Source of the DNA: Longimicrobiales bacterium
GTDB lineage: Bacteria > Gemmatimonadota > Gemmatimonadetes > Longimicrobiales > Gaopeijiaceae
Assembly (NCBI GenBank): GCA_963664435.2
Contig: CAXXKM010000002.1
Span: forward strand, 512,001-576,000
DNA length: 64,000 nucleotides
Direction: 5' to 3'
Position numbers and translations under genes: made by a program. Under the pieces are notes generated by a model. It ran no database searches and had not been told where the DNA came from. It saw only the letters and a list, made by a program, of their open reading frames with translations. Below, one piece after another: positions 1-18,224 of this stretch. Position 1 is the stretch's first letter. The number at the start of each line of letters is the position of its first letter.

Positions 1-122
1 TAGGTTGGGGGGAATACCTTGTCTCCCGCGCCACCCGCGGGCTGAAGCGTCAGGCGTGAGCGGAGCGCGACGGCACCGCCGCTGACGGCCTCCAGCAGGG
101 CGGGGAAGGTGAGTTCGGTCAT
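1..122 (-). CDS. csb1: Type I-G (I-U) CRISPR-associated Cas7/Csb1 (GSU0053 family), N-terminal 40 codons; truncated by the window edge
   Basis: Manual translation from ATG at 122-120 gives MTELTFPALLEAVSGGAVALRSRLTLQPAGGAGDKVFPPT(Y). LQPAGG-x-GDKVFPPTY is the characteristic Csb1/Cas7g N-terminal motif as I recall it. SD GGAGGAG lies just upstream. Not in the ORF track. Confidence 0.85.
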   Translation of the reverse strand, partial: MTELTFPALLEAVSGGAVALRSRLTLQPAGGAGDKVFPPT

Positions 123-218
123 GCTGCTCCTCCGTAGGGTTGGCTGGACCCGCCGTTCACCGCAGATGGCGGACCAGAAAGGTATTGTGGTCTTGCCAAG
201 GGACACGGCTCACCGTGC

Positions 219-327
219 TGGAATGCGGCGGTGGGACTCGAACCCACAACCTGTCCGGGCGGTCTCTCCCGCAAGGGATCGACCATTCGTAGACCCGAAC
301 CGCTCTGTCCAAGTGAGCTACGCCACA
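219..327 (-). ncRNA. tRNA-like RNA with an expanded anticodon arm (possibly tRNA-Arg(UCU)-derived)
   Basis: Minus strand folds as: acceptor TGTGGCG/CGCCGCA; T8A9; D arm GCTC-ACTTGGACA-GAGC; anticodon stem GTTCG/CGGAC; variable region AGGTT; T arm GTGGG-TTCGAGT-CCCAC; then TTCCA. The anticodon loop holds 31 extra nt including the hairpin GGTC-GA-TCCC-TTGC-GGGA-GA-GACC. Confidence 0.85.
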
Positions 328-430
328 GTGCCGGAACCCGTGCGGGCCCCGGAACCCGTCCTCCGACGAATGGAGGCACCCCGCTGACGCACCAGCTTCA
401 ATGAGGCTGTGGATGATCACGAGTGTATTC
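328..430 (-). CRISPR. Degenerate single-spacer mini-array / crRNA-like RNA (pseudo-repeat, ~37-nt spacer, pseudo-repeat hairpin)
   Basis: 430-395 reads GAATACACTCGTGATCATCCACAGCCTCATTGAAGC, with a type I-G-like 3' end and 8-nt handle ATTGAAGC. Spacer spans 394 to ~358. A second repeat-like hairpin CCGGGGCCC-GCAC-GGGTTCCGG lies at 352-331. Confidence 0.75.
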
Positions 431-447
431 TGGTGAGTTAGAGGGGT
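428..447 (+). promoter_or_regulatory. Putative Cascade target site (TTC PAM plus partial protospacer) in an AT-rich, promoter-like region
   Basis: TTC (428-430) precedes TGGTGAGTTAGAGGGGT, versus guide TGGTGCGTCAGCGGGGT. A -10-like TACACT lies on the minus strand at 427-422. Confidence 0.65.
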
Positions 448-905
448 ATTTAAGAGGGCTAACCCATTCCTAACGGATATGCCCATCCAACGCAAGTCCC
501 CCATTCGGCAACCGCTGACCTCGGACCCTACGGCTCCGAGCAACACGCGATCATGGAGGGGCGCGCTTCACGACCAGGAGCGGCGGCATGCACGGGAGCG
601 GCGTCAACTGCGGACGGGCTGGCGAACGGACCAGCCGCGACCACCCCGTACACGGGGGCGACGAATTGTGCTGACGATGCTGCCTGTGCTCGAAGCACCG
701 GCGTGCGTGGAGGCCCTCTCCAGGCGCGTGGCGATCAGGAGCTCGCCGAGATCGACGTCCTGCGCCCAACCGTCGGTCGCCAATAATGCCAGCGCGGAGG
801 CAAGCGCTGCCAATTGAATGGCGGCTCGCCGACAACAGTGACAAAGAGATCCTGAAAGTGTCCGATCTTCCTGGATGGATGGTCGCCGTGGCTTTCGCCG
901 CTCCC

Positions 906-3900: not shown

Positions 3901-4127
3901 GTGGTCTTGTAGATGCCCCCGGAGGCGGCGCCGACGTAGTAGGTGTAGGGGTCGCCCGGCAGCCCGGCGGCCGCGGAGAAGCGGTTGCCCTCGGGGCCGA
4001 TGTAGCGCCATTCGAGGTCGGCGTAGGCTTCGGGAGCAGGCGCCTGCTGGGCGGCGGCGGGCGCGGAAGCCGCAACCAGGGCCAGGAGAAGGAAAAGGGC
4101 GAACGTGCGGGAAGCGAAGGCGTTCAT
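906..4127 (-). CDS. Secreted VPS10/sortilin-like BNR-repeat protein (sialidase/glycosyl hydrolase-like)
   Basis: Signal peptide, WRYIGP start of the mature protein, many S/T-x-D-G-G-x-T/S-W Asp-box repeats, C-terminal helical region. Confidence 0.9.
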   Translation of the reverse strand: MNAFASRTFALFLLLALVAASAPAAAQQAPAPEAYADLEWRYIGPEGNRFSAAAGLPGDPYTYYVGAASGGIYKTTDGGVNWDAIFDDQPVQSIGSLGVSLTDPNIVWAGTGEGKIRSHISVGQGIYKSTDAGQTWTLMGLEQTGRIPRLAIHPTDPDIVYVCALGHSYGPQPERGVFRTMDGGESWEHVLFVDENTGCSDIALDPVNPRNLFAGTWQLEIHTYGRTSGGPGGGLHVSRDGGDSWEKLNGPDNGIGLPNLPVGKVAVAIAPSNTQRVYAMLETGDGIPWDGRETEDGQVWGSTDGGRTWTRITRNRNAMGRPHYYSRVVVSPDDEDEAYFLTASFSVSTDGGRAINVIPREDAPGGDHHDMWIDPGNGDRMIVAHDQGLSISINRGKTWFRQRLTNAQMYHVTVDNEIPYNVLGNKQDEPTYRGPSNSRIQGQRRITGIPRGMWHHVGGGESGFATPDPVDPNIVWSSASGSGMVGGIVVRYEEDRRQWRGVEVWPEQSRGAAEGVRYRFVWDAPILISPHDNNTVYVGSQHVHRTQNRGQSWEVISPDLSLNDRSRMGFSGGLTGDNIGVEYAGVVFGIAESPIEQGLIWAGTNDGLLHVTRDNGASWTNVTENMPDLPEWLAVRSIAASRYDAGTAYVAIDGHQMNVRDPYVYRTRDYGASFEKITDGIPPSMLSYTKIIIEDTKRQGLLYVGTENAIYVSFDDGDNWQPLQNNLPAAPVSGIVIQEHFNDLVVGTYGRGFWIFDDLAPLQQLTPEVMASGSHLFAPRDAYRFRPITPPSVPYDDPTVGVDPEYGAYLNYWLAAPAEEAPTVEIVDGMGAVVRTLDGSNNAGVNRIYWDLRDEPNDPIMLYTRPMYAEHIAVGEEGRPAPGAARISILMAPGQYTVRLNVDGTTHEQPLTVIKDPHSAGSEADIAEQIAFLKDVRADVVTAGEAVHRVEALRVQLETMARFAEDETLSDAIADLEDKLAELQGTLVDLRQTGQGQDAVRFEARLLSKLGYLTNALSIADFPPTDQETEVKGILHEQLQLHLTAVETLIAEDVAALNEMLRTRGLLLITDGG

Positions 4128-4215
4128 GGCAGGTCTCGTGGGAGGTGGTGGAGGATGAGGACTGTGTTCTGGAAAAAGCCCCTCGGAAACCTCGGTCTCC
4201 GGGCGCGTTATTGAC

Positions 4216-15616: not shown

Positions 15617-15818
15617 GGTGACCGGGGTCCCATCCGGGTCTGGTCTCCGGGTCCATCCGGGCCTGGTCAACCGGGTGCATCCGGGCCTGGTCACCGGATC
15701 CATCCGGGCTTGGTCACCGGGTCCATCCGGGCCTGGCCGCCGCGTCAATTCCGGGCCTGGTCACCGGGTCCATCCGGGCTTGGTTGCCGGCACGACCCCC
15801 GGCCTGATCACCGGCACC
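15617..15818. repeat. Degenerate ~23-bp tandem repeat, about 8-9 copies
   Basis: Consensus CCGGGTCCATCCGGGCCTGGTCA repeated head-to-tail after the ggt stop. Confidence 0.85.
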
Positions 15819-15823
15819 ATGCA

Positions 15824-15944
15824 GTCCCGAATTCACATGACGGAGTCTCGTTCTGCCATTGACAAGGTTTGGCGTCCCCCGACGCAGGGGGACCAGGAGC
15901 GGCCGTCCTGAATTCACATGGCGGAGTCCCATTCTGCCATTGAC
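15824..15944. repeat. Two ~40-bp direct repeats separated by 41 bp
   Basis: GTCCCGAATTCACATGACGGAGTCTCGTTCTGCCATTGAC (15824-15863) and GTCCTGAATTCACATGGCGGAGTCCCATTCTGCCATTGAC (15905-15944). Confidence 0.85.
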
Positions 15945-16143: not shown

Positions 16144-17937
16144 ATGTTGGGAGGAATGATGATCGCATCTCCAGACGTTCTCTACGATACGCGCGGGAGG
16201 TCCTCTCCCTGGCCCGCGATGGTGCGCGAACCGACTGGCTCCCGGCCCGCCACCAGGCGCGTGTCCCCGGATGCCCTCTCCGCGCCCGGCGCCGTCACTC
16301 CCCGCGACGATGACCTCGCCCGGCTGGGCGAGCGCATCGCGGAGCTGGCCGCGGGCATCAATGCCGCGGAATCGCGGATGATGGCCCTCCTCGCCGATTT
16401 CGATCGCCGGGGCGGCTGGAAGGACGGCTTCGGCTCCTGCGCGGAGTGGCTCGCCTGGAAGATCGGCATCACGATCGGGCCGGCCCGCGAACGGGTGCGG
16501 GCCGCCCGCGCGCTGGAGAATCTGCCGCAGACCGCCGACGCTCTTCGGGAGGGGACCATCTCCTACGCCAAGGTGCGGGCGCTGACGCGCGTCGCGACGC
16601 CGGCGAGCGAGGCGGAGCTGCTCGAGTTCGCACGCGCCGGCTCGGCCGCGAGGCTGGAGCGGATGGTGCGCATGTGGAAGAAGCTGTCGCGCGATGAGGA
16701 ACTGACCGCCGAGCAGGCCCGGCACCGCAGCCGCACGTTCTCGATGTTCGTGGACGGCGACGGGATGTACGTGGTGAAGGGCCGGCTCGAGCCGGAGGTC
16801 GGAGCGGTGCTGATGCGCGCGGTGGAGGCGGCGTCGGATGCGCTGTTCCGACGCGAGGGCGGGGCCCGAGCCGGAGCAGGAATCGCAACGAGTGTCAGGC
16901 GAGACGCCGGCGATGCGCGCCCGGAGCCGAAGCAGCGGCGGGCGGATGCGGTGGGGCTATTGGCGGAGCGGGCGCTGGCGGCCGGGTTCGGAGATAGCGA
17001 ACTCGGCGACGAGCTGAAGACTCGATCCCACGACGATGGGCCCCGTGACGATGCGCCCCAATCCGAGGACGAGCCGCAGACTCGGTCCCGCGAGGAGTGG
17101 CAGCCCCGATCCCGCACTGAACCGCCCGCCTCCCGCGGCGTCGAATCCGGCACCCGTGCGGAGCGCTACCAGGTGATGGTACATTGCGATGCGGCGACGC
17201 TCGCGGCGGAGGGCGAGCCCGGACGCTCGGATCTGGACGGGATCCGCGTTTCCGCGGAGACGTCGCGGCGCATGGCGTGCGATGCCGCGGTGGTGGCGAT
17301 GGTCCACGCGAAGGATGGCTCGTTGCTGAAGGATAGCTCGCTGCTGAACGTCGGACGCAGGACGCGCACCATTCCTCCGCACATCCGGCGTGCGCTGGAG
17401 GAGCGCGACCGCGGATGCCGCTTCCCCGGGTGCGGGTGCAGGTTCACCGAGGCGCATCACGTGAAGCACTGGGCCGACGGAGGTGAGACGAGCCTCCGGA
17501 ACACACTGTTGCTCTGCCGGCGGCACCATCGCGCCGTTCACGAGGGACAGGTGAAGGTGTCGGTGAACGGCGATGGGACAGTGCTCTTTTTCACGCCCAG
17601 CGGGAAGATGCTGGCGGACGCGCCGCGCAAGCCGACATCGGCGGACACGCTGGGCAAGCCGACATCGGCGACGGCGCCGGGCAGGCCGAGATCCGCGACC
17701 GTGCCGGGCAAGCCAACATCGGCGACCGCGCCAGGGCAGCGAGGCGAAGGGGAAGCACAACCGCCCACGCAGCAGGGGTGGGAGGACTTGCCTCGCGTCC
17801 CATCCGTCCATCCCGGTGCCCCGCCGATGAGCAAGACCGTCGCCCTCTCAAACGGGGCCGCGCTCTACCGCGATTCCGATATCCCGTGGGAGATCGAGGC
17901 CAGGGCGCGCGAAGCTGTGGAGGAGTCTCTGGAATGA
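16144..17937 (+). mobile_element. DUF222 + HNH endonuclease protein (13E12/REP13E12-like element)
   Basis: FDRRGGW...SCAEWL N-terminus, RRMACDA, RDRGCRFPGC...AHHVKHWADGGET...N...LCRRHH HNH motif. The true start may be 16156 or 16159. Confidence 0.85.
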
Positions 17938-18054
17938 CGGGGTCGTCCCCTCCGTAGAGCGTATCGCCCGCGATCGGGCGCACTTCTCCCCGAGATCACC
18001 GGAGGAGCCGGCCTCAGGACTGGCAGCAGACGCCCATCAGAGCTGCGGGAACCA

Positions 18055-18213
18055 CGCGGGAAATGATCGCGTGGACCTCCGCGCCGGAGCGGAAAATGAT
18101 CTCGTGGACACGCGCCGGAGGGGGAGATGATCGCGTGGCCCCCCGCGCCGGAGCGGGAGATGATTGCGTGGCCCCCGCGCCGGAGGGGGAGATGATCGCA
18201 TGCACCTGCGCGC
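18055..18213. repeat. ~31-33-bp tandem repeat, about 5 copies
   Basis: Consensus CGCGCCGGAG(C/G)GGGAGATGATCGCGTGG-N(2-5). Confidence 0.85.
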
Positions 18214-18224
18214 CCAGCCGAAAG

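What the first reader, a model, noticed from the sequence alone, without database searches (positions are those of the whole stretch)
378..448. Guide-target match with Cascade's every-sixth-base mismatch pattern and a TTC PAM
The spacer starts immediately after the ATTGAAGC handle (394->377: TGGTGCGTCAGCGGGGTG) and aligns to + strand 431-448 (TGGTGAGTTAGAGGGGTA). Mismatches fall at positions 6, 9, 12 and 18, and matching stops after that. Type I Cascades flip out every sixth guide base, so three of the four mismatches are at unread positions. The target is preceded by TTC, consistent with the TTN PAM reported for some I-G systems. A ~17-nt R-loop is expected to bind without licensing Cas3 cleavage, suggesting transcriptional autorepression.
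Basis: partly seen in the sequence, partly recalled or inferred. Interest (0 to 1): 0.88.

Follow-up and report, generated by a model that had tools for sequence, protein, structure and literature searches.

The report
CRISPR self-regulating guide fused to tRNA-lookalike
A sponge-associated bacterium's CRISPR system carries a small guide RNA that very probably parks the CRISPR complex on DNA just in front of its own genes, a known kind of self-control, but here the guide is joined to an odd tRNA-like RNA whose role, a processing aid or a toxin, is open.

Summary
The segment after the handle (394->377, minus strand) matches + strand 431-448 with mismatches at 6, 9, 12 and 18, behind TTC. It is the only such site in the 4.5-Mb genome; 10 of 40,000 random positions score as well. 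The handle is the only orphan copy of the repeat end of a complete type I-G system left of the window. In 108 I-G loci, a scan blind to PAM and position found 15 good local matches: 9 follow TTN (control 19 of 449) and mismatches peak at 6, 12 and 18. So this is a CreR/CreA-type regulatory mini-CRISPR, already predicted but untested in I-G. The repressed promoter and this system's own PAM were not established. Sponge RNA contigs cover only 225-444. I found no second example. Best guess: a host tRNA-processing signal; rival: a tRNA-mimic toxin.

The parts
428..430 (+). PAM (TTC) 5' of the target
   Evidence: TTN before 9 of 15 good local matches in I-G loci
431..448 (+). Target (protospacer-like site); pairs with guide positions 1-17 except 6, 9, 12
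422..480 (-). Candidate promoter zone of the guide/tRNA-like unit; no consensus sigma-70 promoter, only weak -10 candidates at 432-427 and 427-422 (and one on the + strand at 426-431)
   Evidence: inference
395..430 (-). Degenerate first repeat: 21 of 36 nt identical to the array repeat, last 13 nt identical, hairpin lost (-1.9 against -16.4 kcal/mol); 8-nt handle at 402-395
356..394 (-). Spacer-like guide segment, 39 nt (array spacers 35-38 nt)
328..355 (-). Degenerate second repeat: 9-bp GC-rich hairpin at 352-331 followed by 3 nt; the handle part is replaced by the start of the tRNA-like RNA
219..327 (-). tRNA-Arg-like RNA: 7-bp acceptor stem, D arm with A20, T arm, U73 at 223, then UCCA; 8-bp anticodon stem (300-293 / 260-253), 8-nt loop segment holding ACG (292-285), inserted 24-nt hairpin (284-261)
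   Evidence: Rfam tRNA 38.8 bits, cut-off 29, E 2.2e-6; folds; comparison with host tRNAs; RNA contigs
123..218 (-). Leader between the tRNA-like RNA and cas7g, with ribosome-binding site; may hold a separate cas promoter (weak -10 candidates seen by eye only)
   Evidence: inference
1..122 (-). Start of cas7g (csb1), first gene of the type I-G operon, which continues left of the window: csb2, cas3g, two Cas8g-region genes, cas4g/cas1g, cas2 and a 27-repeat array

Best explanation
A CreR/CreA-type regulatory mini-CRISPR of a type I-G system. One transcript starts near the target and runs through first repeat, guide, second-repeat hairpin and a tRNA-like RNA towards cas7g. Csb2 cuts at the conserved handle (inferred). 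The 3' end is made next to the hairpin, at the 5' end of the tRNA-like RNA, most simply by host RNase P, since the Csb2 cut-site sequence is gone there (inferred). The roughly 75-nt guide loads into I-G Cascade, which binds the TTC-flanked site over about 17 bp, too short to license Cas3 (inferred from tested I-B, I-E, I-F cases), and damps transcription of its own unit and of the cas genes behind it. The tRNA-like RNA keeps the acceptor, D and T arms that processing enzymes read and has a disabled anticodon arm. Shown: sequence match, PAM, repeat remnants, I-G genes, the recurring signature in relatives, an RNA contig over the unit. Inferred: processing, binding, repression, the role of the tRNA-like RNA.
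For: Exact and unique match; chance 10 of 40,000. Complete I-G operon, Cas3g 768 bits against a cut-off of 400, DEVH and HD motifs present. Blind scan: 9 of 15 best local matches follow TTN (8 of 14 without this locus) against 19 of 449; mismatch counts 7, 10, 11 at positions 6, 12, 18 against 1-4 elsewhere; control flat at 102-132. In relatives the targets sit on or just behind recognisable -35/-10 boxes upstream of cas7g (L002, L003, L014, L158, read by eye). Handle kept in repeat 1 and hairpin kept in repeat 2, as described for CreR (10.1101/2023.03.10.532045 section 8). Csb2 cuts 4 nt after the hairpin; the tRNA-like RNA begins 3 nt after the hairpin. RNA contigs cover 225-444 only, end at the tRNA-like 3' end and carry the insert unspliced.
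Against: No promoter could be placed, so 'auto'-repression of cas is by analogy. Repeat 1 has lost its hairpin, and Csb2 binds the hairpin, so the 5' cut is uncertain. The strain seen in the RNA contigs differs at guide position 8 (place 387), which adds a seed-side mismatch unless the target changed too; it gains a match at position 19 (place 376); two further differences in that contig were not listed. The upstream region is not conserved in any relative examined, so there is no direct guide-target covariation for this element. The tRNA-like RNA is a single case, and none of the other I-G mini-arrays needs one. The RNA contigs are unstranded, at depth about 3, and X1 and X5 look like one data set filed twice.
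Confidence: 0.62

Rival explanations
1. CreTA-type addiction module: the guide works as described, but what it holds down is the tRNA-like RNA, a new kind of RNA toxin (a decoy for arginyl-tRNA synthetase or another tRNA-Arg-handling enzyme) that accumulates when Cascade is lost or blocked; cas7g may have its own promoter in 123-218.
For: The RNA keeps listed bacterial arginine determinants A20, U73 and G2-C71, and G70 of C3-G70 (PMC9976931 table 1, passages; sequence) while the anticodon arm cannot be canonical. The host has an ordinary tRNA-Arg(ACG), so the copy is not needed for decoding. Toxin and antitoxin share one auto-repressed promoter in Halobacterium hubeiense, and known CreT toxins act on tRNA supply (PMC8501985, passages). 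It occupies the place between target and cas genes where L002/L003 carry a 63-codon ORF. RNA contigs stop at its 3' end and do not enter cas7g.
Against: No toxicity data. The RNA is present in field samples. It would be made one-for-one with the guide. Known CreT RNAs use a ribosome-binding site and mini-ORF, which this is not. No second example.
Confidence: 0.2
2. The guide represses a divergent promoter that fires rightwards from about 438 (towards 449-820), as in relatives where mini-array and repressed promoter point apart; the product would be an unrecognised toxin RNA or the 112-codon ORF at 479-817.
For: In L003, L155, L158 and L160 the PAM lies between the -10 box and the start of the target on the transcribed strand; here a -10-like hexamer sits at 426-431 on the + strand. 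Acinetobacter creT is divergent from creA and downstream of the target (PMC10097628, passages).
Against: No -35 for that hexamer; ORF 479-817 has no Pfam match and no clear ribosome-binding site (by eye).
Confidence: 0.08
3. The two segments only pair as an RNA stem in a leader transcript, with no DNA targeting.
For: Fold of 460->330 pairs leader with guide, -52 kcal/mol, z -2.99, 0 of 200 shuffles as good; RNA reaches at least 444.
Against: The fold of 444->219 does not form that stem. Three of the four mismatches (6, 9, 12) are C-U or C-A, not wobble pairs. The match starts at the first base after the handle and follows TTC. In L014, L071 and L141 guide and target have the same sense, so no stem is possible, yet the same signature appears.
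Confidence: 0.06
4. A decaying remnant: orphan repeat and a broken tRNA gene left by island movement, the match being chance.
For: Single case; strain differences in the guide.
Against: Chance rate 2.5 in 10,000; all tRNA stems are paired although 5 of 7 acceptor pairs differ on both sides from the host tRNA-Arg(ACG) (read by eye); no second copy of the tRNA 3' end in the genome as an attachment site would leave.
Confidence: 0.04

Closest known systems
CreR (Cas-regulating RNA) mini-CRISPRs, Liu et al., bioRxiv 10.1101/2023.03.10.532045 (seen: passages, section 8 whole, legends; figure images not seen); crRNA-like regulatory mini-arrays, Shmakov et al., PMC10120712 (seen: passages, table 1)
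   Same: Two divergently decayed repeats (handle kept in the first, hairpin in the second), partial PAM-flanked match upstream of the effector genes, sixth-position mismatches. Liu lists creA-like elements for I-U (= I-G) in Figure S7; Shmakov gives mini-arrays in 4% of 235 I-G loci.
   Different: Tests reported in what I read were for I-B, I-E, V-A and I-F1, not I-G. In the passages read no case has a tRNA-like RNA fused to the second repeat.
CreTA / CrePA toxin-antitoxin modules (PMC8501985, PMC10097628, bioRxiv 10.1101/2024.01.05.574328; seen: passages)
   Same: Guide of the same build; a small structured unit under the targeted promoter; link to tRNA biology; TTC PAM and skipped sixth base in the I-B cases.
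   Different: Known CreT RNAs are mini-ORF RNAs that sequester rare tRNAs; CreP is a protein. None described in those passages is itself tRNA-shaped. Toxicity untested here.
Type I-G Cascade of Thioalkalivibrio sulfidiphilus (bioRxiv 10.1101/2022.08.08.503147; seen: passages)
   Same: Csb2, Cas7g, Cas3g; 36-nt repeat with 7-bp hairpin, 4 nt, 8-nt handle; 5+1 flip-out; TTN PAM cited.
   Different: This Cas7g finds no solved relative by phmmer (0 hits); the Cas8g region is two ORFs of 341 and 373 aa.
Bacterial tRNA-Arg(ACG); engineered tRNA-guide arrays (PMC9120480, seen: search listing only); mascRNA-type tRNA-like processing signals (recalled, no call)
   Same: D arm, variable loop and T arm nearly identical to the host tRNA-Arg(ACG); a tRNA next to a guide can define its end through host tRNA-processing enzymes (recalled).
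   Different: 8-bp anticodon stem and 24-nt inserted hairpin; natural, bacterial, and tied to a regulatory guide.

Membership tests
Type I-G CRISPR-Cas | cas7g (csb1), csb2, cas3g, Cas8g-region gene, cas4-cas1 fusion, cas2, array | tested here: met
   NCBIfam TIGR02570, TIGR02165, TIGR02621, NF049934, NF049935, TIGR01573 all over cut-off; 27 repeats
Type I-G CRISPR-Cas | TTN PAM for this system's own spacers | tested here: inconclusive
   No true protospacer found for 26 spacers; TTN supported only through regulatory targets in relatives and print
CreR / CreA regulatory mini-CRISPR | First repeat keeps the 8-nt 5' handle | tested here: met
   Last 13 nt identical to the array repeat
CreR / CreA regulatory mini-CRISPR | Second repeat keeps the 3' hairpin part | tested here: met
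   9-bp hairpin 39 nt after the handle, -18.2 kcal/mol, 14 of 36 ungapped identity
CreR / CreA regulatory mini-CRISPR | Partial, PAM-proximal complementarity to a nearby PAM-flanked site | tested here: met
CreR | Target in or next to the promoter of the cas effector genes | tested here: inconclusive
   Target is 309 nt upstream of cas7g, but no promoter could be placed; RNA contigs end at 444 and 225
CreR | Cascade-dependent repression without cleavage | not testable with these tools
   Needs reporter and binding assays
CreR | No linked toxin | tested here: inconclusive
   ORFs 109-387, 157-546, 479-817 have no Pfam match; a tRNA-like RNA of unknown effect is linked
CreTA | Toxic RNA with ribosome-binding site, mini-ORF and hairpin | tested here: inconclusive
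   None evident by eye in 123-480; no systematic scan below 60 codons was run for the window
CreTA | Toxicity on loss of Cascade | not testable with these tools
   Needs expression in cells
Canonical tRNA | 7-bp acceptor stem, D arm with G18G19, 5-bp T stem with T loop | tested here: met
Canonical tRNA | 5-bp anticodon stem with 7-nt loop | tested here: not met
   8-bp stem, 8-nt segment and 24-nt hairpin; ARAGORN finds none without the intron option; 5 bp and 7 nt are the rule (PMC7609411, passages)
Intron-containing tRNA (bulge-helix-bulge type) | Spliceable motif and spliced product | tested here: not met
   The bulge-helix register is 12.9 kcal/mol worse than the best fold and lacks the outer helix; RNA contigs run through the insert with no joint

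The most novel reading that the evidence does not exclude
A Cascade-regulated unit in which a domesticated, translation-dead tRNA-Arg derivative is a working part: either the first natural regulatory CRISPR guide whose 3' end is made by host tRNA-processing enzymes, or a tRNA-mimic RNA toxin (an arginyl-tRNA synthetase decoy) that makes the cell addicted to its type I-G Cascade and punishes anti-CRISPR phages.
Probability: 0.35. Interest if true: 0.85.

Novelty: new variant of a known kind. Interest (0 to 1): 0.55.

Why it matters
The guide-target pair alone extends a published mechanism: it gives about ten candidate I-G cases with a TTN PAM and every-sixth-base pattern in a subtype where, in the papers I read, it is predicted but not tested. 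The fused tRNA-like RNA matters more. If it matures the guide, nature uses the tRNA-guide trick that engineers devised, and a CRISPR guide can be finished without the Cas6-type cut. If it is toxic, it is a new class of CRISPR-guarding toxin with an obvious target to test. Both are cheap to test with a 300-nt fragment.

Tried and rejected
PAM from the main array: no true protospacer in the own genome (69 spacers from three related arrays), 19 genomes of the genus (a 27-of-30 hit in two genomes is a conserved gene preceded by ATC/ATG, uninformative), phage records or viral contigs (1 of 26 spacers tried, 0 hits). Homologues of the whole upstream region: only short T-arm matches in 10 of 100 other genomes; none in plasmids or phages. 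tRNA-like pattern: 0 in viral contigs, 0 in metagenome contigs, 1 of 401 and 1 of 111 genomes, both the own copy. Handle-plus-D-arm pattern: 31 viral hits, none with repeat or target. Loose enlarged-arm pattern: 54 viral hits, 27 distinct, none like this element or beside a guide-target pair. No tRNA-like RNA in other I-G loci (ARAGORN; Rfam on 40 loci; one ordinary tRNA-Pro call in L167). ARAGORN's 'tRNA-Glu with intron' label rejected. A first impression that L003 shares the 37-nt geometry was wrong (67 nt). Orphan handles in L042 and L161 have no convincing local target. Absence of RNA cover outside 225-444 is no proof of silence. No solved relatives for Cas7g or the 341-aa ORF. The likeness of the guide to the last array spacer is not significant after choosing the best of 26 (136 of 5,000 shuffles). 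Paper searches for a tRNA-like part in CRISPR regulatory units found none (term searches in an open-access library; supplements and figure images, notably Figure S7 of Liu et al., not seen and could hold a similar case).

Full report
Setting. The window is G000:C2:512001-576000. Reading left from position 122 on the minus strand, and beyond the window edge, lies a complete type I-G CRISPR-Cas operon: cas7g, csb2, cas3g, two Cas8g-region ORFs, an inserted AAA/PD-(D/E)XK gene on the other strand, cas4g/cas1g, cas2 and an array of 27 repeats of 36 nt with spacers of 35-38 nt. Cas3g scores 768 bits against a cut-off of 400 and keeps DEVH and HD motifs. The closest Cas7g relatives (63-77% identity) come from metagenome-assembled genomes of many phyla; RNA runs holding the stretch include sponge metagenomes.

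The observation. The segment that follows the handle matches + strand 431-448 with mismatches at 6, 9, 12 and 18 and none of use after; TTC precedes it. The handle and five bases before it are identical to the end of the array repeat, and this is the only copy outside the array. In the whole genome only this site has TTN and at most two non-sixth mismatches over 17 nt. Of 40,000 random genome positions treated as guides, 10 found an equally good TT-flanked site within 300 nt, 203 when no PAM was asked for.

Anatomy on the minus strand. Target (448-431), PAM, a first repeat with the handle but no hairpin (21 of 36 identical; -1.9 against -16.4 kcal/mol), a 39-nt spacer-like segment, a second repeat that keeps a 9-bp hairpin (352-331) but not the handle, three bases, then a tRNA-like RNA (327-223), 97 nt of leader and cas7g. 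This split of labour between the two repeats is what Liu et al. describe for CreR (section 8). For type I-G, Csb2 cuts 4 nt after the hairpin to leave an 8-nt handle, Cas7 flips out every sixth base, and a TTN PAM is cited (10.1101/2022.08.08.503147, passages). The array repeat here has exactly that 7-bp hairpin, 4 nt, 8 nt build.

Relatives. The upstream region itself is not conserved, so I asked whether I-G loci share the signature. I gathered loci by Cas7g. From 185 loci held, one search used 108, leaving out repeats of the own locus, re-fetched duplicates, 12 tRNA-arm hits and 51 array or viral loci; a few overlapping loci remain, and guides were de-duplicated. For 86 orphan handle-like motifs it took the best 18-nt match within 400 nt, with no weight on PAM or position. 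Fifteen reached 13 of 18 or better; 9 of these follow TTN (TTC 4, TTG 2, TTA 2, TTT 1; 8 of 14 without this locus), against 19 of 449 in a random control. Mismatch counts were 7, 10 and 11 at positions 6, 12 and 18 and 1-4 elsewhere; the control was flat (102-132). Caveats: the handle pattern was written after seeing some cases (the L071 handle was added by hand), and several cases are kin (L002, L003, L155, L156, L158), so there are perhaps five independent lineages. L002 and L003 share a mini-array but differ in both guide and target site. By eye the targets lie on or just behind -35/-10 boxes upstream of cas7g. This is strong family-level support for DNA targeting by I-G Cascade with a TTN PAM.

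What is repressed is less clear. No consensus promoter lies in the region, though host tRNA promoters are ordinary TTG...TAnnnT types. In most relatives the mini-array points away from cas; here it points towards it, so guide, tRNA-like RNA and possibly the cas genes share a transcript. Contigs from three sponge RNA runs cover 225-444, 225-444 and 225-363 and nothing else in 1-1300, while a DNA run covers all. They are unstranded, at depth about 3, from a slightly different strain, and X1 and X5 look like one data set; their common stop at the tRNA-like 3' end is a weak hint of a processed end. One fold pairs leader with guide, the fold of 444->219 does not, and same-sense cases in relatives cannot form such a stem, so a stem alone does not explain the pattern. 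That strain differs at guide position 8 (a match lost unless the target also changed) and 19 (a match gained); two more differences were not listed. This is unresolved and counts mildly against.

The tRNA-like RNA. Rfam scores it as tRNA (38.8 bits, E 2.2e-6) with 40 nt in place of 9 in the anticodon region. Its D arm, variable loop and T arm are close to the host's own intact tRNA-Arg(ACG); the loop segment begins like an Arg(ACG) anticodon loop, but the stem is 8 bp and a 24-nt hairpin with tandem G-A pairs is inserted. The acceptor stem is fully paired although 5 of 7 pairs differ on both sides from the host tRNA (by eye), and it keeps A20, U73 and G2-C71, listed as bacterial arginine determinants (PMC9976931). 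The two strain differences inside it fall at a variable D-loop base and in the insert. It is not spliced in the RNA contigs, fits a bulge-helix-bulge intron badly and has no duplicate 3' end in the genome. Its first bases take the place of the second repeat's handle. I found no second example.

Mechanism. Most likely (0.62) a CreR-like negative loop in which the tRNA-like RNA supplies the guide's 3' end through host processing, or is at least harmless. That RNase P reads the acceptor and elbow and ignores the anticodon arm is recalled knowledge, from no call. Next (0.2), a CreTA-like module with a tRNA-mimic toxin; an auto-repressed toxin-antitoxin operon is precedented (PMC8501985). A divergent promoter (0.08), a mere RNA stem (0.06) and decay (0.04) are less likely. 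That the guide directs Cascade to this site is common to the first three readings (0.9 together).

Novelty. Regulatory mini-arrays are published; I-U/I-G cases are listed as predictions and an earlier unchecked note of this scan reports another. The guide-target match alone is a new member of a known kind. The fusion with a translation-dead tRNA-Arg derivative was not found in seven paper searches, within the limits of term search, an open-access library and unseen supplements. As a single case without function it earns 'new variant of a known kind' and interest 0.55.

Noticed in passing
L186, L189, L196, L212, L216, L220, L225, L230, L237 (about 1495-1610): Viral tRNA genes with inserts of about 40 nt in the anticodon arm, made of a short hairpin followed by a shared ACAGCA(A) motif, in several tRNA types; Rfam calls the five tested (L186, L189, L212, L230 and neighbours) only tRNA. 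Phage tRNA introns are mentioned for megaphages (PMC6784885, search listing only); whether this motif is described I did not check.
   Followed up: partly
L197 1490-1589 and L204 1495-1611: Viral tRNA-Arg(TCT) genes with a 26-nt hairpin or a 43-nt insert in the anticodon loop.
   Followed up: no
L002 3235-3420, L003 5460-5620, L014 5650-5770, L071 9430-9625, L141, L155, L156, L158, L160, L016: Further candidate type I-G regulatory mini-arrays with TTN-flanked targets near cas promoters.
   Followed up: yes
L003 5710-5901 and L002 about 4024-4215: A 63-codon ORF between the target and cas7g, conserved in both loci; candidate small regulator or protein toxin. In L002 an insertion-sequence-like gene separates it from cas7g.
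   Followed up: no
G000:C3:1204750-1215500: A second type I-G system in the same genome (Cas7g 33% identical, 33 repeats of another sequence); no guide-target pair found near it.
   Followed up: partly
main array, G000:C2:498658-500585: Duplicated spacers (8 = 9, 22 = 25, 12 and 16 differ by one base); the last spacer shares its first 7 nt with the regulatory guide, not significant overall.
   Followed up: partly
L001 9825-11285 and 11540-13433: An AAA-ATPase/PD-(D/E)XK gene inserted in reverse between the effector genes and cas4g/cas1g; the Cas8g region is two ORFs (341 and 373 aa), the second with a partial Csb2-family match.
   Followed up: no
L088 about 1500 (G001): A lone intact I-G repeat directly after a cas4/cas1 gene fragment, apparently the scar of a deleted system.
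   Followed up: no
L015, L016, L019, L021-L025, L042, L141, 40-70 nt before cas7g: A recurring TGTCAYACCC-like motif upstream of cas7g, mostly in Acidimicrobiia, seen by eye; possible regulator site or promoter element.
   Followed up: no
window 15633-15944, 17586-17747, 18047-18214: Short degenerate tandem repeat tracts of 23-33-nt period.
   Followed up: no
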